NCBI GenBank assembly: GCA_043815465.1
Contig: JBDRIW010000052.1
Span: 1 to 31,351, forward strand
DNA from: Candidatus Nealsonbacteria bacterium
GTDB taxonomy: Bacteria; Patescibacteriota; Minisyncoccia; Minisyncoccales; RBG-13-42-11
Length of the DNA stretch: 31,351 bases
Direction of reading: 5' to 3'
A program made the position numbers and the translations under genes. This document shows positions 378 to 8,204 of this stretch, piece after piece (the stretch's first letter is position 1; each line of letters begins with the position of its first letter). The notes under the pieces are model-generated. The model did not search any database, was not told where the DNA came from, and saw only the letters and a list, made by a program, of their open reading frames with translations.

Positions 378-1688
378 TTACTCGCCCGTAACTCTTTCAA
401 CTTCTTCTATCGTAGTTACGTTTTCCAATACCTTAACAAAACCATCTTGTTTCATAGTAGTCATCCCCCTTTCAATAGCTTTTTCTTTTAAGTCTGCGAT
501 AGAGGGATTTTTTAATATAAATCTTTCCATTTCTCCATCTATCAAAATGGTTTCAAAAACTCCTACTCTTCCTTTAAATCCAGTAGAATTACATTCGCTA
601 CACCCTTTAGGGATAGCAATTTTACTTACCTCAGAGAGTTTGTATTTTTTAATAAAAATTTCTGGTAATTCTTTTTTTATTTTAGTCAGCTCTTCTTTTG
701 AAATAGTTTTTAGAGATAAACATTTTTTACATACTTTTCTTACCAATCTTTGAGCAATAGCCATATTGATTGCTGGTCCGATATTTTTTATATCTCCCTC
801 TAGGCTAGTCATTCTAGAAATTGTTCCAGCTGCGTCATTAGTATGTAAGGTAGAAAATACAAGATGACCAGTTAGAGCTGCCTGTATAGCTATTTTGCTT
901 GTTTTAGGGTTTCTTATTTCTCCGACAAGGATAACGTCAGGATCTTGTCTCATAATAGATTGAAGACCAGAAGCAAAATCATATCCTTTTTCAGGATTTA
1001 CTTGTGTTTGAGAGATTCCTTTTAAATGATATTCAATAGGATCTTCTATCGTTATCATTTTTATTTCAGAACTTTGTATTTCTTTTAAAAAAGCGTATAG
1101 GGTGGTGGTTTTTCCAGAGCCAGTAGGTCCTGTAATAATAATCATCCCATTAGGTTTTTTAATTTCTTTCTTAAACATTTTTAGTAAATCCTCTCGCAAG
1201 CCTAAATCTCCCAAGCTTATTAAAGATTTAGGATTTAATATTCTAATTACAACAGCCTCTCCATATTCTGCTGGCAGAGTAGAGATTCTTAACTCTATAG
1301 GAAGAACATCTTTTTCTTCTCCCATAAAAACGCTAAATCGGCCATCTTGAGGCCGATCACTTATGTTTAATTTAATACCAGCTAAAAGTTTTATTCTAGA
1401 AAGTATTTCTTTATAATCTTCTGTATTTAAGTCTATAACATCTTGTAAAATTCCATCTGTTCTGATCCTTATCTTTGAAGTCTCCTTCATCGGTTCTATG
1501 TGAAGATCAGATGCGCCTATTTGTATAGTTCCTCCAATTATTGTTTCAATTAGCTCACTAGTAGTTTCTGAAACAGCTTTTTTAATTTCCTCTTGTAAAA
1601 TAGAAACACTTTTTATCTTATTAACCAAAGAAATCTTTTCTGGAGAAAAAAATATTCCCTTACCTGATTGTTTTGAGTTCTCTTGCAT
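378..1688 (-). CDS. Type IV pilus / type II secretion assembly ATPase (PilB/GspE family)
   Basis: GASDLHIEP, RIRTDG, Walker A GPTGSGKTT, TIEDPIEY, RQDPDVILVGEIR, TGHLVFSTLHTN and a Zn tetracysteine site (CKKC...CSEC). Confidence 0.93.
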   Translation of the reverse strand: MQENSKQSGKGIFFSPEKISLVNKIKSVSILQEEIKKAVSETTSELIETIIGGTIQIGASDLHIEPMKETSKIRIRTDGILQDVIDLNTEDYKEILSRIKLLAGIKLNISDRPQDGRFSVFMGEEKDVLPIELRISTLPAEYGEAVVIRILNPKSLISLGDLGLREDLLKMFKKEIKKPNGMIIITGPTGSGKTTTLYAFLKEIQSSEIKMITIEDPIEYHLKGISQTQVNPEKGYDFASGLQSIMRQDPDVILVGEIRNPKTSKIAIQAALTGHLVFSTLHTNDAAGTISRMTSLEGDIKNIGPAINMAIAQRLVRKVCKKCLSLKTISKEELTKIKKELPEIFIKKYKLSEVSKIAIPKGCSECNSTGFKGRVGVFETILIDGEMERFILKNPSIADLKEKAIERGMTTMKQDGFVKVLENVTTIEEVERVTGE

Positions 1689-1746: not shown

Positions 1747-2211
1747 ATGGAAAACAAAGAAATATTTATTACCAAAAACGTAGATCAGACTAAAAGGGCG
1801 GGAGAATTACTAGCAAAAGAACTTCTTTTAAATAAATCCAAGAGGGGGTCTTTAGTCCTTAGTCTTAACGGATATTTGGGAGGAGGAAAAACTACTTTCT
1901 TGCAAGGATTTGCGAAGGGATTAGGACTTAAAGAAAAAATATTAAGTCCAACCTTTGTTATTTTAAAAAGATTTAAATTAACAAAAAATAAAAACTATAA
2001 TAATTTTTATCATATAGATTGTTATAGAATACAAAACTCAAAAGAAATGTTATCTTTGGGCATCAAAGAGATTTTAAAAGATCCTAAAAATATAGTTGGT
2101 ATAGAATGGGCCGAAAGAATAAAAAATATCTTACCGAAAGAAGTAATAATTTTACAGTTTGATGTTATTGAAAAAGACAAAAGAAAACTTACTTTAAAAT
2201 ATAATGACTAA
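1747..2211 (+). CDS. tsaE: tRNA threonylcarbamoyladenosine biosynthesis ATPase TsaE
   Basis: GYLGGGKTTF, SPTF, YHIDCYR and GIEWAE motifs; 154 aa. Confidence 0.93.
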   Translation: MENKEIFITKNVDQTKRAGELLAKELLLNKSKRGSLVLSLNGYLGGGKTTFLQGFAKGLGLKEKILSPTFVILKRFKLTKNKNYNNFYHIDCYRIQNSKEMLSLGIKEILKDPKNIVGIEWAERIKNILPKEVIILQFDVIEKDKRKLTLKYND

Positions 2212-3139
2212 AGAAAAGAAATATTTAATTGTTATAGATTCTAATTCTATTATTCATAGAGCCTTTCATGCATTACCACCTTTAAAGAAAAAGAATGGAG
2301 AAATAGTAAACGCCGTTTACGGATTTTTATTAGTTTTTATAAAAGCTATTCAAGATTTTAAGCCAAGCTATATTGTCGCTACATTTGATTTACCAAAACC
2401 AACTTTTAGACATAAAAAATATAAAGAATATAAGGGGAAAAGAGAGAAGTCTCCAGAAGAACTTTACTCTCAAATACCAAAGATAAAAGAATTCTTAAAA
2501 CTATTTAAGGTTCCAATAGTAGAAAAAGAAGGATTTGAAGCAGATGATATCATTGGAACTGTTTCAAGAATTGTTCCTAAAAAAGATCCCAAAATAGAAA
2601 CAATCATTCTTAGTGGAGATTTAGATGTTTTGCAATTGGTAAATAATAAAACAAAAGTTTTTACTTTGAGAAAGGGCGTAAAAGATATAATTCTTTATGA
2701 TGATAAATTAGTGAAAGAGAGATTTGGAGGCTTGGGCCCCGAGCAATTAATAGATTATAAGGGGTTAAGAGGAGATCCTTCTGACAATATACCAGGAGTT
2801 GTTGGGATAGGAGAAAAAACAGCTATTAATTTATTATTAGAGTTTAAAACATTAGAAAATATTTATAAAAATATTGCTAAAACAAAAAATATTTCTGAAA
2901 GAATTAAAAAATCATTGTTAGATAATAAAAAAATGGCATTTTTATCTAAGGAATTAGCCGAAATTAACGTTAAAACTCCAATAGATATTAAGATTGAAGA
3001 TTGTGAATGGGGAGTTTATGATAAAAATAAGGTTATGGAAATGTTGGATGAATATGAGTTTTTTAATATAAAAAAAAGATTTATTGAAATGATTAGAGAA
3101 GAGAATAAATTAATTGGGGAGAATTTAAAATTATGGTAA
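2204..3139 (+). CDS. Stand-alone 5'-3' exonuclease / flap endonuclease (PolA N-terminal domain family)
   Basis: IDSNSIIHRAFHA, NAVYGF, FRHKKYKEYKGKR, EADDIIG, SGDLD and GDPSDNIPGVVGIGEKTA motifs; no polymerase domain in 311 aa. Confidence 0.9.
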   Translation: MTKEKKYLIVIDSNSIIHRAFHALPPLKKKNGEIVNAVYGFLLVFIKAIQDFKPSYIVATFDLPKPTFRHKKYKEYKGKREKSPEELYSQIPKIKEFLKLFKVPIVEKEGFEADDIIGTVSRIVPKKDPKIETIILSGDLDVLQLVNNKTKVFTLRKGVKDIILYDDKLVKERFGGLGPEQLIDYKGLRGDPSDNIPGVVGIGEKTAINLLLEFKTLENIYKNIAKTKNISERIKKSLLDNKKMAFLSKELAEINVKTPIDIKIEDCEWGVYDKNKVMEMLDEYEFFNIKKRFIEMIREENKLIGENLKLW

Positions 3140-3148
3140 AATCTTATA

Positions 3149-4435
3149 ATGAATATTTTAATAGCTTATTATTCTAGAACGGGAAACACAGAAAGATTAG
3201 CTAATGAGCTACAAAAAAAACTCAAAGAAAAGGGTCATATTATAGATTTGGAAAAGATTATAGTTAAAAATAAAAAAGGATCTTGGTCCTGGTTTTTTTT
3301 GAGAATTTTTAAATCAAAAACAGAAATATTTCCATTAAAAATAAAAGATGTTTCGAAATATGATGCGATTTGTCTTGGTTCTCCTAATTGGACAAAAATA
3401 TCTCTTCCTTTAGCTACTTATCTTGAGGAGGTAAAGGGAATAAAAAATAAAAAAATTGGTATTTTTGGTACTGCTTTTTTATGGCCAAAAATTGAGTGGT
3501 ATTTAATTTCCTCCTATATGTTTGATGCATCTTTTTACGGTGCCGTAGAAAAAGCAGGAGGAAAAATTGTTTTTTCTTTATTTTTATCAGGATATTTTAA
3601 ATTTAAAGGAATGGAGTCTAAATATGGAAAAGAAAATATAGATCAATTTTGCGACAAAATAGAAGCTCCAACTCTCTCTTTTAAACAATATTTTTTAAAT
3701 CAAAGAAATGTCGAAGGAGCTAGATTATCTTTTCTTTTGTTTTCATTTTTTCTTTTAATTTCTTTTGTCGTTCAAATATTAAGCTCTATTCTAGGTAAAA
3801 ATATTTTTTCATGGGAAGAGTATTATCCTTTATTAGGAATATCTATTATTTCCTCTTTTTTCGTTCTTGCAGCTTTGTCTGCCAAAAAATTCTTTTCTCT
3901 TATTAAATATTTCAGTATTTTTTCTTTTCTTTCTATTTTAACAATCTGGATCTTTTTATTTAATTTTTCTTCAGGAGAAATAATAAGTGGATATATTCTT
4001 TTATTCGCTGTATTCTCTTTCTTTAAAGATACAAGAGCAATTATTTTTTCTGGAATATTATCTCTTTTAAGCTACGGATATTTATATTTATTTTGTTCCC
4101 TAGAACATAATTTTAATCCCTTAGTAAATATTTCTTTTTTAATTTTAAGTATTATTATCATCAGTTTTGTAACTAAAAATATACAGGATAGTCATATTAA
4201 GTCCCTAGAATCTCAAGACGAAGCCGAAATAGCAAAGTCTTCTTTGGAAGTAAGGATTGAGGCTAGAACCAAAGAATTAAAAGACATGTCTAAAAGATTG
4301 GAAGAACAGGTAGAAATTAGAACCAAAGAATTAAGAATAAAAATAGAAGAATTAGAAAGATTTAATAAATTATCAGTTGGAAGAGAATTAAAGATGATAG
4401 AACTTAAAAATGAACTTAAAAAGTTAAGAGAATAA
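3149..4435 (+). CDS. Flavodoxin-domain multi-pass membrane protein with C-terminal signalling helices (putative sensor)
   Basis: N-terminal YYSRTGNTERLA and YDAICLGSPNW (flavodoxin fold). About 6-7 hydrophobic segments lie at aa ~190-345. The C-terminus has two RTKEL S-helix motifs and ELERFNKLSVGRELKMIELK. Confidence 0.75.
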   Translation: MNILIAYYSRTGNTERLANELQKKLKEKGHIIDLEKIIVKNKKGSWSWFFLRIFKSKTEIFPLKIKDVSKYDAICLGSPNWTKISLPLATYLEEVKGIKNKKIGIFGTAFLWPKIEWYLISSYMFDASFYGAVEKAGGKIVFSLFLSGYFKFKGMESKYGKENIDQFCDKIEAPTLSFKQYFLNQRNVEGARLSFLLFSFFLLISFVVQILSSILGKNIFSWEEYYPLLGISIISSFFVLAALSAKKFFSLIKYFSIFSFLSILTIWIFLFNFSSGEIISGYILLFAVFSFFKDTRAIIFSGILSLLSYGYLYLFCSLEHNFNPLVNISFLILSIIIISFVTKNIQDSHIKSLESQDEAEIAKSSLEVRIEARTKELKDMSKRLEEQVEIRTKELRIKIEELERFNKLSVGRELKMIELKNELKKLRE

Positions 4436-4438
4436 AAG

Positions 4439-5632
4439 ATGTCAAAGCTACCTCAAAAAATTAATATACCCGAAAGAAAGAAGATAGTTAAGATAGATAA
4501 AAGCACTGAAGATTTAGAAAATTCAAGAAAGGCCTTAATGAATATGTTAGAAGATGTGGAGGAGGCTAAAAATAGAGCAGAAGAAGAAAAGAGCAAAACT
4601 TTGTCTATAGTTAGCAATCTTTTTGATGGCTTAATTGTTATTGATAAGGAGGGAAAGATTTTTTTAATAAATAAGCAAGCAGAGAAGTTTTTAGGTTTAC
4701 CTGTCGATGAGTTAATGGGAAAAACTATAGAAGAGAGCAAAATTCATCCTTTAATAAAAACATTAATAGGAGAAACAGAAGCAATTTTTAGAAAAGAAAT
4801 AAATATTAAAAAAAATCTTACTGTAGAAATTTCTACGATATCATTAATGATTAAAGGAACCGAGATGGGGACAATGATTATTCTTCATGATATTACTAGA
4901 GAAAAAACAATAGAGGCAATGAAAACAGAGTTTGTTTCTTTGGCAGCTCATCAATTAAGAACTCCCTTAGCTGCTATTAAGTGGACAATTAGAATGCTTT
5001 TAGATGGAGACTTGGGGGAGATTACTCTAGAACAAAGAGAAATGATTAAAAAAACATATCAAAGCAATGAAAGGATGATCATTCTAATTAATGATTTATT
5101 GGATGTTACCAGAATAGAAGAAGGAAGATATCTTTATAAACCTGTTTCGGCTGATTTAAAAAGTCTTGTAGCTTTCACTATCAAGCCATACAAAGATGAG
5201 TTAAAAAGAAAAAATATAAAATTAGAATTTAAAAATTCTAGAGATAAGATTCCAAGAGTTCTTATGGATGTTGAGAAAATCAGATTGGTCATTCAGAATA
5301 TTTTAGAAAATGCTATAAAATATACTTTAACCGGAGGTAAAATAAATATTTTTCTTAAAGTTGATAAAGAGGCAGTAGAAGTTCAATTTCAGGACGATGG
5401 AGTGGGAATACCAAAAGATCAACAAAAAAGAATATTTACAAAATTTTTTAGAGGAGCAAATGTTATAAGAATGGAGACGGAAGGATCTGGATTAGGAATA
5501 TTTATCTCTAAAAATATAATAGAGGCTCACGAAGGAAAGATATGGTTTGAATCAGAAGAAGGGAAAGGAACTACTTTTCATTTTTCTCTACCTATCAGAA
5601 AAGAGTTTAAAGAATTCTTAAAAGAATTTTAA
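4439..5632 (+). CDS. Cytoplasmic PAS-domain sensor histidine kinase
   Basis: Coiled coil, PAS-like DGLIVIDKEGKIFLINKQAE, H-box FVSLAAHQLRTPL, N-box NILENAIKY, G1 DDGVGIP and G2 GSGLG; no transmembrane segment. Confidence 0.93.
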   Translation: MSKLPQKINIPERKKIVKIDKSTEDLENSRKALMNMLEDVEEAKNRAEEEKSKTLSIVSNLFDGLIVIDKEGKIFLINKQAEKFLGLPVDELMGKTIEESKIHPLIKTLIGETEAIFRKEINIKKNLTVEISTISLMIKGTEMGTMIILHDITREKTIEAMKTEFVSLAAHQLRTPLAAIKWTIRMLLDGDLGEITLEQREMIKKTYQSNERMIILINDLLDVTRIEEGRYLYKPVSADLKSLVAFTIKPYKDELKRKNIKLEFKNSRDKIPRVLMDVEKIRLVIQNILENAIKYTLTGGKINIFLKVDKEAVEVQFQDDGVGIPKDQQKRIFTKFFRGANVIRMETEGSGLGIFISKNIIEAHEGKIWFESEEGKGTTFHFSLPIRKEFKEFLKEF

Positions 5633-5651
5633 AATATAAATATAAAATAAT

Positions 5652-6020
5652 ATGTCTAAAAAAATACTTATAATAGAAGATGAAGAGATAATGATGGAAC
5701 TTTTGCAAAAAAAGTTAATTCAAGCTGGATATGATGTTGTGGTTGCTAGAAACGGAGAAGATGGATTAAGGGTAATGGAAGAGTCTAAACCAGACTTAGT
5801 TTTGTTAGATATAGTTATGCCAAAGATGAATGGATTTGACGTAATGGAAAAAATGAACGAAAATAAAGATATTAAAAAGATTCCAGTAGTAATTGTTTCA
5901 AATTCAGGACAGCCAGTAGAAATAGATAGAGCTCAGAAATTAGGGGCTAAAGATTGGTTGGTTAAAACGGAATTTGATCCTAAAGAAGTATTGGATAAAG
6001 TAAAAAAACAAATAGGATAA
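5652..6020 (+). CDS. Single-domain response regulator (receiver only)
   Basis: ILIIEDE, DLVLLDIVMPKMNG (phospho-Asp), VSNS and LVK motifs; 122 aa with no output domain. Confidence 0.92.
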   Translation: MSKKILIIEDEEIMMELLQKKLIQAGYDVVVARNGEDGLRVMEESKPDLVLLDIVMPKMNGFDVMEKMNENKDIKKIPVVIVSNSGQPVEIDRAQKLGAKDWLVKTEFDPKEVLDKVKKQIG

Positions 6021-6021
6021 T

Positions 6022-6390
6022 ATGGCAAATAAAATACTAATAGTAGAAGACGATAAATTCCTTAGAGAATTAATATCTCAAAAATTGTTGAAAGAGCAGT
6101 ATGACGTTTCTGTTGCTATTGATGGAGAAGAAGGAATTAAAAAAATAATAGAAGAAAAGCCAGATATGGTTTTATTAGATCTTATTCTTCCAGGAATAGA
6201 TGGTTTTGAGGTCTTAACAAAAATGAAAAATGATCCTACGGTTTCTAATATCCCCGTTATCATTCTTTCTAATTTAGGACAAAAAGAAGATATAGAAAGA
6301 GGATTAAAATTAGGAGCGACAGATTATATGATTAAAGCTCACTTTACTCCAGGAGAAATAATAGAAAAAATAAGATCGATTCTTGGATAA
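6022..6390 (+). CDS. Single-domain response regulator (receiver only), paralogue of the upstream gene
   Basis: ILIVEDD, DMVLLDLILPGIDG, LSNL and MIK motifs; 122 aa. Confidence 0.92.
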   Translation: MANKILIVEDDKFLRELISQKLLKEQYDVSVAIDGEEGIKKIIEEKPDMVLLDLILPGIDGFEVLTKMKNDPTVSNIPVIILSNLGQKEDIERGLKLGATDYMIKAHFTPGEIIEKIRSILG

Positions 6391-7265
6391 TGCCAGAATT
6401 ACCAGAAGTAGAAACAATAGTTAGAGAGTTAAAAAAAGAGGTCCTGAATAGGACCTTTGTTGATGTATGGACTGATAATGAAAACATGATTAAGAAACCA
6501 AAAAGTTTTAATCTCTTTAAAAAAGAAATAAAAGGAAAAATTGTAAAGCGCATAGAGAGAAGAGCTAAAAATATTCTTTTTTATTTATCTGGAGGTAAAA
6601 TGTTATTAATTCATCAGAAAATGACTGGACATTTTTTGATCGGCAAATGGAAAAGAGAAAAAAATAAATGGACTTCTATCATAAAAGGACCAATTTTAGA
6701 GGATCCCATGAATAGATTTTTGCATTTAATTTTTTGGTTGAATAATGGGAAAATGTTAGCCTTAACAGACCTTAGAAAGTTTGCTAAAGCTGAATTGTGG
6801 GATGAAAAAGAATTTAAAGAATCAGCTTATTTAAAATCTTTAGGACCAGAGCCCCTAGAAAAGAAATTTGATTACAATAAATTTAAAGAAGTCTTAGAGA
6901 GAAAAAGGGGAAAAATAAAACAAGTTCTTTTAGATCAAACTGTGGTAGCTGGAATAGGAAACATATACTCAGATGAAATACTTTTTGTTGCGAAAATTAG
7001 ACCCACAAAGAATGTTCCAGAATTATCAGAAAAAGAAAAGAAGAACATTTATTTAGGAATTAAGAATATTCTTCGCTTGGCAATAAAACTTAAGGGAGAA
7101 TCTTTTTCCGATTTTAGAAGAACTAATGGGGAAAAGGGATTTTACGATAAGGCTAGAAAGGTTTATCGTAAAGAGGGAGAAGAATGTCCTGTTTGTGGAG
7201 AGAAAATACAAAGAATAAAGATGGGTGGAAGATCTGCTCATTTTTGTCCAAAATGCCAAAAATAG
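6390..7265 (+). CDS. mutM: Formamidopyrimidine-DNA glycosylase / AP lyase
   Basis: N-terminal MPELPEVET, RRAK, H2TH GIGNIYSDE and C-terminal zinc finger CPVC...CPKC. Confidence 0.96.
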   Translation: MPELPEVETIVRELKKEVLNRTFVDVWTDNENMIKKPKSFNLFKKEIKGKIVKRIERRAKNILFYLSGGKMLLIHQKMTGHFLIGKWKREKNKWTSIIKGPILEDPMNRFLHLIFWLNNGKMLALTDLRKFAKAELWDEKEFKESAYLKSLGPEPLEKKFDYNKFKEVLERKRGKIKQVLLDQTVVAGIGNIYSDEILFVAKIRPTKNVPELSEKEKKNIYLGIKNILRLAIKLKGESFSDFRRTNGEKGFYDKARKVYRKEGEECPVCGEKIQRIKMGGRSAHFCPKCQK

Positions 7266-7268
7266 ATT

Positions 7269-8204
7269 ATGATTTTTTTACTTTACGGACCAGATAATTA
7301 TAGCTCTAGAGAAAAAGTGAGAGAGATGGTAGAGCATTATAAAGAAATTCACAAAAGTGGATTAGATTTTAAATATCTTGATGGTAAGAATTTAGACTTT
7401 AGCGAGTTACTTAATGAAGACCAACAGAGCTCTATTTTTAATGAGAAAAAACTTATTGTTGTGACAAATGTTGTTTCTAATAAAGAGTTTAAAGAAAAAT
7501 TTATTAAAGGTTACAAGAAACTCATTGATAGTTCTAATATAATTGTCTTTTTAGAGGAAGATAAGATAGCAACAAATGATTCTATTTTAAAGATTTTAAA
7601 AAAGCATGCTAAATGTCAGGAATTTCCAATTTTATCTGGAGAGAAAATGAAAAGATGGGTTAAAAATGAGCTTAGTAAATTTAAGGGAGATATCTCCACA
7701 AATGCTTTAGATAAACTTTTAGAATATTGCGAAGGTAATCTATGGAGTTTAAGTAATGAGATTAAGAAGTTGGGCGCCTTTAAAATTGGAAAAACGATAG
7801 AAATAAACGATGTTGAATTATTGGTAAAACCAAAGATAGAAACAGATATTTTTAAAACTATAGATGCCATAGCTTCTAAGGATAGAAAGTCAGCTTTATT
7901 ATTACTTCATAAACATTTAGACAAAGGAGACTCTCCTCTTTACCTTTTGTCTATGATTAATTTTCAATTTAGAAATCTTTTATTGGTAAAAGATTTAATG
8001 GAAAAAGGAAAATCTTATTATGATATTCCTAAATTAACGAAGCTTCATTCATTTGTTGTTAAAAAAAGTTATCAATCAGCCCAAAGGTTTCAATATCAAG
8101 AATTACAAAAAATCTACCAAAAGATTTTTCAGGTAGATTTGTCTATTAAAACTGGTAAATTAAAACCAGAGATAGCTCTAGATATTTTTATTGCTGAGAT
8201 TTAG
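7269..8204 (+). CDS. holA: DNA polymerase III delta subunit
   Basis: FLLYGPDNY start, NEIKKL, IFKTIDAI and D-x-x-IKTG C-terminus. Confidence 0.88.
   Translation: MIFLLYGPDNYSSREKVREMVEHYKEIHKSGLDFKYLDGKNLDFSELLNEDQQSSIFNEKKLIVVTNVVSNKEFKEKFIKGYKKLIDSSNIIVFLEEDKIATNDSILKILKKHAKCQEFPILSGEKMKRWVKNELSKFKGDISTNALDKLLEYCEGNLWSLSNEIKKLGAFKIGKTIEINDVELLVKPKIETDIFKTIDAIASKDRKSALLLLHKHLDKGDSPLYLLSMINFQFRNLLLVKDLMEKGKSYYDIPKLTKLHSFVVKKSYQSAQRFQYQELQKIYQKIFQVDLSIKTGKLKPEIALDIFIAEI

What the first reader, a model, noticed from the sequence alone, without database searches (positions are those of the whole stretch)
3149..6390. Split flavodoxin-membrane sensor + PAS kinase + two receiver-only regulators: possible redox-sensing relay with no DNA-binding output
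Seen: a protein with an FMN-loop flavodoxin domain, about 6-7 TM helices and tandem S-helices is followed by a soluble coiled-coil-PAS-HisKA-HATPase kinase and two 122-aa receivers with intact phospho-Asp. No transcriptional output domain is present. Inference: the membrane protein docks on the kinase through coiled coils and passes a flavin redox signal to protein targets, such as the pilus ATPase encoded nearby. I do not recognise a flavodoxin fused to a membrane sensor arm as a described architecture.
Basis: partly seen in the sequence, partly recalled or inferred. Interest (0 to 1): 0.68.

Follow-up and report, generated by a model that had tools for sequence, protein, structure and literature searches.

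The report
Split flavodoxin-membrane sensor kinase system
A tiny-genome (Patescibacteria) bacterium encodes a signalling kinase in two separate proteins, a membrane sensor carrying a flavodoxin-type domain and a soluble kinase, which feed two small receiver proteins; this is a real, conserved and undescribed variant of ordinary two-component signalling.

Summary
Gene 3149-4435 encodes a flavodoxin-fold domain, six membrane helices and one ~100-residue helix ending in a highly conserved tail (ELERFxKLxVGRELKMIELK). Gene 4439-5632 is a soluble helix-PAS-HisKA-HATPase kinase, followed by two intact 122-aa receivers.

The two large genes are in frame across a single TAA, but this is not a broken gene:
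- All 27 full-length orthologues found in 401 genomes of the order end at the same place.
- Most relatives have extra sensor genes (V4R-like, FIST) between the halves.
- The nearest congener has the kinase overlapping in another frame.

Natural one-chain versions (715-918 aa) exist and align end to end with the two window genes. The two halves are also present or absent together within the genus. The membrane protein is therefore very probably the input subunit of this kinase.

Still untested: flavin binding (the cofactor-site residues are the best conserved), docking through the tail, and a type IV pilus target. The pilus idea rests only on context: every receiver in this genome is stand-alone, and the others lie in pilus operons.

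This scan has met the split cassette before in other CPR genomes. New here are the flavodoxin-6TM input and the minimal two-protein form.

The parts
3149..4435 (+). FldTM gene: kinase-less membrane sensor subunit (428 aa)
   Evidence: ORF; full-length orthologues, all ending here
3149..3664 (+). Flavodoxin-fold domain (aa 1-172) with P-loop YYSRTGNTE (aa 7-15), GSPNW (77-81) and IFGTA (105-109)
   Evidence: Pfam; AF2; Foldseek; alignment to 3EDO; conservation
3680..4183 (+). Six-helix transmembrane module (aa 178-345), no named family
   Evidence: no Pfam hit; also found without the flavodoxin domain
4184..4432 (+). Cytoplasmic continuation of TM6 as one long helix (aa 346-428) with two xRT S-helix-like signatures (372-374, 390-392)
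   Evidence: S-helix definition PMC1592074
4349..4408 (+). Conserved terminal tail ELERFNKLSVGRELKMIELK (aa 401-420), candidate docking surface
   Evidence: 90-96% conservation of G411, R412, E413, M416, L419 and K420 in 130 homologues; nearly always at the C-terminus of kinase-less sensors; 75% identical between G000 and G003 against 48-57% for the rest
4433..4435 (+). TAA stop that separates the two in-frame genes; an ordinary terminator, not a lesion
   Evidence: TAA ends 214 of 288 long ORFs; split conserved
4439..5632 (+). Soluble histidine kinase (397 aa): N-terminal helix, PAS, HisKA (H171), HATPase_c
   Evidence: Pfam; motifs; orthologues
4502..4618 (+). Conserved kinase N-terminal helix (aa ~22-60: ELExSRKALMNMLEDVEEAKxxAEEEKSKTL), the N-cap of the PAS domain
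   Evidence: conserved in all 20 cassette kinases; in fused P0008 its second half continues directly from TM6
5652..6020 (+). REC1, stand-alone receiver (D53)
   Evidence: Pfam; alignment; conserved downstream of the kinase
6022..6390 (+). REC2, stand-alone receiver (D53), 44% identical to REC1
378..1688 (-). PilB/GspE-type ATPase (436 aa), divergent neighbour; context only and a candidate target
   Evidence: Pfam T2SSE; NCBIfam PilB/GspE; syntenic in relatives

Best explanation
The four genes form a naturally split two-component system of Paceibacteria-type Patescibacteria.

Shown:
- FldTM is a membrane protein whose N-terminal flavodoxin-fold domain and C-terminal long helix lie on the same side of the membrane, since there are six TM helices. 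That side is taken to be the cytoplasm.
- It has no enzymatic output.
- It ends in a tail that is far more conserved than a generic coiled coil.
- The next gene is a soluble PAS-HisKA kinase with all catalytic motifs.
- The kinase is followed by two CheY-like receivers with intact phospho-sites.
- Relatives exist in which FldTM and this kinase are a single chain.
- The split form is the rule in the order.
- The two halves are gained and lost together.

Inferred:
- FldTM is the input subunit of this kinase.
- Its flavodoxin domain binds FMN and reports a redox (or flavin-dependent) state to the 6-TM bundle and TM6 helix.
- The dimeric helix and tail contact the kinase's N-terminal helix, the N-cap of its PAS domain, and so set autophosphorylation at H171.
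- The kinase then phosphorylates REC1 and REC2 at D53.
- The receivers have no output domain and act by binding other proteins, most plausibly the type IV pilus motor ATPases.

My estimates for each step: sensor-kinase partnership about 0.75; flavin as the cue about 0.5; direct tail-to-kinase docking in this genome about 0.4; pilus target about 0.3.
For: - Architecture.
- Rosetta stone: 7-8 fused representatives (715-918 aa) carry flavodoxin-like + TM + PAS + HisKA + HATPase_c. P0008 aligns end to end with the read-through of the two window genes, and its kinase half is closely similar.
- Fused forms lie in about five places among split forms in the tree.
- Split conserved: open frames of 431-484 aa in 27 of 27 full-length matches from 401 genomes of the order. 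The congener G003 has the kinase overlapping in another frame.
- Gene pair plus two receivers conserved in 19 loci.
- Co-presence in G000 and G003, co-absence in G001 (100% complete) and G002.
- Cofactor-site conservation: S9 95%, G12 80%, T14 95%, G77, W81 and F106 100%, W48 99%.
- The tail is conserved at 90-96%. It stays the most conserved part between G000 and G003, both of which lack any V4R-like gene at the locus; none was found in G000's genome.
- The kinase N-terminal helix is conserved in all 20 cassette kinases.
- All REC domains in this genome lie in 118-127-aa ORFs. The other three lie in type IV pilus clusters.
- No CheW or MCP was found.
- Fused forms are also followed by a stand-alone receiver.
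Against: - No biochemical data exist for any member.
- Pfam flavodoxin models match only the P-loop region above threshold. G12 varies in 20% of homologues. This window has Thr where 83% of homologues have Cys58.
- In most relatives V4R-like or FIST genes sit between the halves. V4R-like genes pair 12 of 12 with kinases that have an extra PAS, so the tail's usual partner might be that adaptor rather than the kinase.
- Some lineages have FldTM without an adjacent kinase (L113, L118, L119, L115).
- The AF2 read-through proxy gives low confidence (pLDDT 39-73) at residues 356-446.
- The tail and the kinase N-terminus show no pairwise similarity.
- The pilB neighbour is part of a long conserved housekeeping block.
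Confidence: 0.62

Rival explanations
1. One broken or recoded gene: the TAA at 4433 is a recent nonsense mutation, a sequencing error or a programmed read-through site, and the real product is an 827-aa membrane kinase.
For: The two ORFs are in the same frame, separated by TAA plus one codon. Fused one-chain relatives exist.
Against: All 27 full-length orthologues in the order stop at the same place. In G003 the kinase overlaps in a different frame, and in most genera whole genes lie between the halves. Fused forms are about 110 residues shorter than a read-through and lack the tail. No protein was found with the two helices contiguous. TAA is the standard stop in this genome.
Confidence: 0.03
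2. FldTM signals through an adaptor rather than by touching the kinase. The tail's real partner is the V4R-like (H-NOX-like) protein found in most relatives. In this genus, which has lost that gene and the kinase's first PAS domain, FldTM is uncoupled, vestigial or rewired.
For: Kinases with the extra PAS are directly preceded by a V4R-like gene in 12 of 12 loci. Tail-bearing proteins are typically followed by a V4R-like gene. No V4R-like gene was found in this genome.
Against: The tail remains the most conserved segment between G000 and G003 (75% against 48-57%) although neither locus has the adaptor. Direct FldTM-kinase adjacency recurs in G143 and G178. Fused forms show that the sensor can drive the kinase without any adaptor.
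Confidence: 0.2
3. FldTM is an independent membrane flavoprotein, for example a redox enzyme or electron-transfer protein. Its adjacency to the kinase only reflects frozen gene order in a streamlined genome.
For: The whole block pilB-tsaE-exo-FldTM-...-fpg-holA is syntenic. Orphan FldTM loci without a kinase exist (L113, L115, L118, L119). Stand-alone flavodoxin paralogues exist.
Against: There are fused sensor-kinase chains and co-loss in the genus. The same tail ends dCache-HAMP and sCache-HAMP sensors. The helix carries S-helix-type signatures typical of signalling proteins.
Confidence: 0.1
4. The N-terminal domain keeps the flavodoxin fold but does not bind flavin. It binds another ligand or only scaffolds the TM bundle, and the cue is sensed in the membrane by the 6-TM module.
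For: Weak, partial Pfam matches. The 6-TM-plus-tail form exists without the domain (G021, many 260-300-aa homologues). P-loop Gly varies in 20% of homologues.
Against: All three FMN-contact loops align with FMN-bound 3EDO and are the most conserved positions in the domain. In G021, which lacks the domain, a FAD-oxidoreductase gene sits in the cassette, which hints that flavin chemistry is the theme.
Confidence: 0.3

Closest known systems
Classical membrane sensor histidine kinases of the PAS-HisKA-HATPase_c type (WalK/PhoR-like by NCBIfam similarity)
   Same: Same catalytic core, the same logic of a TM input linked by a signalling helix to PAS and DHp, and phosphotransfer to a receiver Asp. 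Fused relatives (P0008 and others) have exactly this layout.
   Different: Here the input and the kinase are separate polypeptides. The input is a flavodoxin-fold domain plus an unnamed 6-TM bundle. The receivers have no DNA-binding domain.
Accessory-sensor plus kinase pairs: H-NOX/HnoK and NosP/NahK (established knowledge; also named in the earlier scan notes e1-5160449 and e1-729100)
   Same: A separately encoded sensor protein controls a co-encoded soluble histidine kinase by protein-protein contact.
   Different: Those sensors are soluble haem proteins. This one is an integral membrane protein with a flavodoxin-type domain and a conserved helical tail. No H-NOX-like or V4R-like protein is present in this genome.
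Signalling helix (S-helix; Anantharaman, Balaji and Aravind 2006, PMC1592074)
   Same: A parallel coiled-coil segment with an R-T signature in a central heptad, directly after a sensor module.
   Different: The S-helix is defined as a ~40-residue connector between two domains of one protein. Here the helix ends the protein, carries two signatures 18 residues apart with E replaced by A or I, and is followed by a distinct, more conserved VGRELKM tail.
Pil-Chp chemosensory system with the antagonistic stand-alone receivers PilG and PilH (PMC10519157)
   Same: A membrane receptor with a helical cytoplasmic tail, a soluble kinase and two CheY-like receivers without output domains. Genomic association of stand-alone receivers with PilB, PilT and PilC.
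   Different: The kinase is HisKA-type, not CheA. No CheW or MCP was found in the genome. No link to pili is shown for REC1 or REC2.
Flavodoxin_4/5-type small flavoproteins (3EDO, 4ICI, 3KLB; WrbA; HemG-like)
   Same: Same fold and the same three FMN-contact loop motifs.
   Different: Those are soluble redox proteins. Here the domain is fused to six TM helices and a signalling helix and, in relatives, to a kinase.

Membership tests
HisKA-type sensor histidine kinase (gene 4439-5632) | HisKA dimerisation/phospho-acceptor domain with conserved His, and an HATPase_c domain with N, G1, F and G2 boxes | tested here: met
   Pfam HisKA E 5.7e-15 and HATPase_c E 3.1e-30; H171, NILENAIKYT, DDGVGIP, FTKFFRG and GSGLGI present
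HisKA-type sensor histidine kinase (gene 4439-5632) | Autophosphorylation and phosphotransfer activity | not testable with these tools
   needs biochemistry
Flavodoxin-like FMN proteins (Flavodoxin_4/5 type) | Five-stranded parallel alpha/beta flavodoxin fold | tested here: met
   AF2 pLDDT 87.9; Foldseek 3EDO TM 0.77 rmsd 2.1 A; Atlas TM 0.84-0.91
Flavodoxin-like FMN proteins (Flavodoxin_4/5 type) | Phosphate-binding P-loop (S/T-x-T-G-x-T) and aromatic isoalloxazine-contact loops | tested here: met
   S9-R-T-G-N-T14, GSPNW81 and F106-G-T align with FMN-bound 3EDO/2MWM; conserved 80-100%
Flavodoxin-like FMN proteins (Flavodoxin_4/5 type) | Score above the family's curated threshold over the whole domain | tested here: inconclusive
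   Flavodoxin_3 (37.4 bits against 27.5) and Flavodoxin_5 (28.5 against 27) pass, but only on residues 4-38; Flavodoxin_4 scores 17.1 against 24
Flavodoxin-like FMN proteins (Flavodoxin_4/5 type) | Binds FMN | not testable with these tools
   needs spectroscopy of the purified domain
S-helix (PMC1592074) | ~40-residue, five-heptad helix with a central E-R-T signature | tested here: inconclusive
   A-R-T (372-374) and I-R-T (390-392) on a continuous helix; family consensus ARTREL / xRTxEL; E not conserved; the two signatures are 18 residues apart
S-helix (PMC1592074) | Lies between an upstream sensor domain and a downstream effector domain of the same polypeptide | tested here: not met
   the helix ends the protein at residue 428; conserved in orthologues
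CheY-like stand-alone receivers (REC1, REC2) | Receiver fold with acidic pair, phospho-acceptor Asp, conserved Ser/Thr and Lys, and no further domain | tested here: met
   Response_reg E 8e-26 each; E9-D10, D53, S83, K105; ORFs of 122 aa
Chemosensory (Che/Pil-Chp) system | CheA kinase, CheW adaptor and MCP receptor | tested here: not met
   no CheW (PF01584) and no MCPsignal (PF00015) found in the 87%-complete genome; the kinase is HisKA-type
PilS-type or MASE-type membrane sensor modules | Match to PF25323 (6TM_PilS) or the MASE profiles | tested here: not met
   no hit even at E up to 10 for the TM region of 8 family members; only language-model feature similarity

The most novel reading that the evidence does not exclude
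The VGRELKM tail is a general docking plug. It lets kinase-less sensors, here a flavodoxin-6TM redox sensor, assemble non-covalently onto a soluble HisKA kinase. The kinase's two CheY-like receivers then steer type IV pilus ATPases. In bacteria that have no transcription-factor response regulators and no Che proteins, this would be a chemoreceptor-array-like control system for host-attachment pili built from ordinary two-component parts, with cellular or host-derived redox state as its cue.
Probability: 0.2. Interest if true: 0.8.

Novelty: new variant of a known kind. Interest (0 to 1): 0.55.

Why it matters
Patescibacteria make up a large share of bacterial diversity and live attached to host cells, yet almost nothing is known about how they sense anything. 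This locus shows three things:
- A flavodoxin-type domain used as a kinase input, which I could not find described.
- A sensor kinase that is normally built from separate polypeptides joined by a conserved tail.
- A lineage in which essentially all response regulators are stand-alone receivers, several of them encoded inside type IV pilus operons.

In cultivated relatives such pili drive host attachment (PMC9894109, PMC11623550). If the parts work as inferred, this gives a minimal two-protein system for testing how split sensors couple to kinases. It is also a candidate route from redox state to pilus behaviour in episymbionts.

Tried and rejected
- Read-through or pseudogene reading: rejected.
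- Search for proteins in which the membrane-half tail and the kinase-half helix are contiguous: none. Six hits covered at most 48% of the junction, and all matched the tail only.
- Positional orthology of fused forms: could not be shown. The contigs are short or in other neighbourhoods, and no fused form was found among the species-representative genomes scanned.
- PilS or MASE identity of the 6-TM module: not supported by HMMs.
- AF2 of the read-through chain as a stand-in for the heterocomplex: the domains fold, but the junction 356-446 has low confidence, so it is uninformative.
- A 'matching repeat' between the tail and the kinase N-terminus, suggested by an earlier scan note: no pairwise similarity in this window (E 6.2).
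- Chemotaxis parts in the genome: none found.
- A V4R-like adaptor elsewhere in the genome: none found.
- Promoter and terminator scan: promoter-like sites are at chance level, and there is no + strand terminator-like site between tsaE and about 7925, near the end of holA.
- Literature: no paper in the held library has the terms 'flavodoxin-like domain', 'histidine kinase' and 'transmembrane' together. Patescibacteria two-component papers were not relevant.
- Foldseek hits to GPCR entries are engineered flavodoxin-fusion crystallisation constructs and were ignored.
Full report
**What is there.** The window is contig C52 of a 489-kb genome, about 87% complete. Public names for relatives point to Paceibacterota, Parcubacteria and Nealsonbacteria in the Patescibacteria. 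On the + strand lies an uninterrupted run of genes:
- tsaE (1747-2211)
- a 5'-3' exonuclease (2204-3139)
- FldTM (3149-4435, 428 aa)
- a histidine kinase (4439-5632, 397 aa)
- two 122-aa receivers (5652-6020, 6022-6390)
- fpg and holA

A PilB/GspE-type ATPase (378-1688) is transcribed divergently. There is no + strand terminator-like site between tsaE and about 7925, near the end of holA.

**The membrane protein.** Pfam recognises only the flavodoxin P-loop region, residues 4-38. An AlphaFold2 model built on 27 homologues is confident (pLDDT 87.9, pTM 0.73). It shows:
- a five-stranded alpha/beta domain (1-172)
- six TM helices (178-215, 222-245, 249-270, 275-292, 295-315, 324 onward)
- TM6 continuing as one helix to residue 427

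Hydropathy also gives six TM segments, so both ends lie on the same side of the membrane.

Foldseek places the N-terminal domain with FMN-bound flavoproteins (3EDO, 4ICI, 4J8P, 3KLB), WrbA and classical flavodoxins. Atlas structure searches agree. By sequence, the three FMN-contact loops (YYSxxGxT, YDxIxxGSPxW, FxTxA) align with 3EDO/2MWM. In 130 homologues these are the best-conserved positions of the domain: S9 95%, G12 80%, T14 95%, G77, W81 and F106 100%, W48 99%. Flavin binding is therefore likely but not shown. The window protein has Thr where 83% of homologues have Cys58.

No Pfam model covers the 6-TM module. The PilS and MASE leads from language-model features were not confirmed.

**The helix and tail.** The helix carries two xRT-K-E-L signatures, at 372-374 and 390-392. 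These resemble the 'ERT' signature of the S-helix (PMC1592074). But the S-helix is defined as a connector between two domains, and here the helix ends the protein.

The last part, ELERFNKLSVGRELKMIELK (401-420), is conserved at 90-96% at G411, R412, E413, M416, L419 and K420. That is far more than a generic coiled coil needs. In the exhaustive search this segment lies at the very C-terminus of nearly all hits of 100-540 aa. These include dCache-HAMP and sCache-HAMP membrane proteins.

**Split, not broken.** The two large ORFs are in frame, separated by TAA and one codon. The split is nevertheless conserved:
- All 27 full-length matches in 401 genomes of the order lie in open frames of 431-484 aa, as do about 20 representative clusters in the 1.8-billion-protein library.
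- In the congener G003 the kinase overlaps FldTM in another frame.
- In most other genera one to three V4R-like genes, small tail-bearing proteins or a FIST gene lie between the halves.
- TAA is the usual stop in this genome, ending 214 of 288 long ORFs.
- A search with the read-through junction found no protein in which the two helices are contiguous.

**They belong together.** Seven to eight representatives of 715-918 aa carry flavodoxin-like, TM, PAS, HisKA and HATPase_c in one chain. P0008 aligns end to end with the read-through of the two window genes. It lacks about 110 residues, which are the S-helix-like region, the tail and the kinase's first ~40 residues. Its TM6 helix runs straight into the segment that forms the kinase's N-terminal helix here.

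In a tree of the Fld-6TM part the fused forms fall in about five places among split forms. One clade (support 96) is nested in a large split clade. This is consistent with recurrent secondary fusions, although a single origin is not excluded by the well-supported branches.

FldTM is followed by the kinase, and wherever the contig extends far enough also by two receivers, in 19 loci. Within the genus, G000 and G003 have both halves, while G001 (100% complete) and G002 have neither. Exceptions exist: four loci (L113, L115, L118, L119) have FldTM without a kinase nearby.

**The cassette is modular.** Kinases with an extra N-terminal PAS (528-558 aa) are directly preceded by a V4R-like gene in 12 of 12 loci. 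Shorter kinases (397-474 aa) are preceded by FldTM itself (this window, G003, G143, G178) or by a FIST gene. Related genomes are not independent samples, so these counts overstate the evidence.

This genus has the minimal form. No V4R-like gene was found in the genome. Even so, the tail remains the most conserved segment between G000 and G003 (75% identity against 48-57% elsewhere). This argues that the tail still has a partner here, most simply the kinase. The kinase's N-terminal helix (ELExSRxALMN[MI]LEDVEEARxKAEEEKxKTL) is conserved in all 20 cassette kinases.

A read-through AF2 model was tried as a proxy for the complex and was uninformative at the junction. The tail and the kinase N-terminus show no sequence similarity.

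**Output.** Both receivers have the acidic pair, D53, S83 and K105. The genome has three HisKA kinases and five receiver hits, all in ORFs of 118-127 aa. Across 25 genomes of the family, about 105 of 109 receiver hits lie in open frames under 170 aa. The lack of a DNA-binding output is therefore a property of the lineage.

The other receivers in this genome sit in type IV pilus clusters:
- HK-REC-PilB-PilC on C27
- PilB-REC-PilT-PilC-pilin on C44
- a REC-like gene next to a likely prepilin peptidase and pilins on C23

No CheW or MCP was found. Stand-alone receivers controlling pilus motors are known from PilG and PilH (PMC10519157), and type IV pili mediate host attachment in cultivated Saccharibacteria (PMC9894109, PMC11623550). 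A pilus target for REC1 and REC2 is thus reasonable but only circumstantial. The pilB neighbour here belongs to a long syntenic block of housekeeping genes.

**Comparison and novelty.** The system works like an ordinary membrane sensor kinase, as the fused relatives show. In its split form it works like accessory-sensor/kinase pairs such as H-NOX/HnoK or NosP/NahK. It is not a Che system.

Public databases call the protein 'hypothetical', 'flavodoxin' or 'uncharacterized membrane protein'. No family model and no paper in the held library describes the architecture.

Earlier notes from this scan, which are AI-written and unchecked, describe the same split cassette and the VGRELKM tail in other CPR genomes. 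None covers this protein. New here are the flavodoxin-6TM input, the natural fused counterparts and the minimal adaptor-free form. I rate it a new variant of a known kind, of moderate interest.

Noticed in passing
G000 contigs C27:9000-13300, C44:2600-9050, C23:17370-20030 (same genome, outside the window): Every receiver domain found in this genome is a stand-alone protein of 118-127 aa. The three outside the window lie inside type IV pilus gene clusters, next to PilB, PilT, PilC, a likely prepilin peptidase and pilins. The same REC-only pattern holds for about 105 of 109 receivers in 25 genomes of the family.
   Followed up: partly
L014, L015, L016, L017, L019, L020, L108, L109, L121, L122, L124, L125 (relatives): V4R-like genes of about 200 aa (ending ...ETKCxFxGDPYHEF..W; weak Pfam V4R match) always directly precede cassette kinases that carry an extra N-terminal PAS (12 of 12). 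They are missing where the kinase is short. They may be adaptors working with that PAS domain.
   Followed up: partly
L022:4827-8889 (G021): Here the FldTM orthologue lacks the flavodoxin domain (271 aa, TM plus tail). A 396-aa FAD-dependent amine-oxidase-like gene sits between it and a GAF-PAS kinase, so a different flavoprotein occupies the same cassette.
   Followed up: no
L109:2466-4313 (G396); L114, L115, L117 (family f21): G396 has a stand-alone 171-aa flavodoxin paralogue (48% identical to FldTM residues 1-172) directly upstream of FldTM. In family f21 a 222-241-aa flavodoxin-like gene precedes FldTM and a 425-461-aa membrane protein follows it. In L115, the only one of these loci with enough flank, there is no kinase nearby.
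   Followed up: no
window 3320-3322 (FldTM residue 58): 83% of 130 homologues have Cys at this position within a conserved E-C-x-I motif of the flavodoxin domain. This window has Thr. Whether the Cys is redox-active or contacts the cofactor is unknown.
   Followed up: no
L109, L110, L121, L122 (relatives): Extra small proteins of 194-211 aa that end in the same VGRELKM tail lie inside the cassettes, mostly followed by a V4R-like gene (L109, L121, L122; in L110 a FIST-like gene follows). This suggests repeated sensor-plus-adaptor units feeding one kinase.
   Followed up: no
window 1747-8204: The signalling genes sit within a co-directional run of tRNA-modification, repair and replication genes (tsaE, 5'-3' exonuclease, fpg, holA). 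There is no + strand terminator-like site before about 7925, near the end of holA, and no recognisable Shine-Dalgarno sequence before any of the genes. The order is conserved across many genera.
   Followed up: partly
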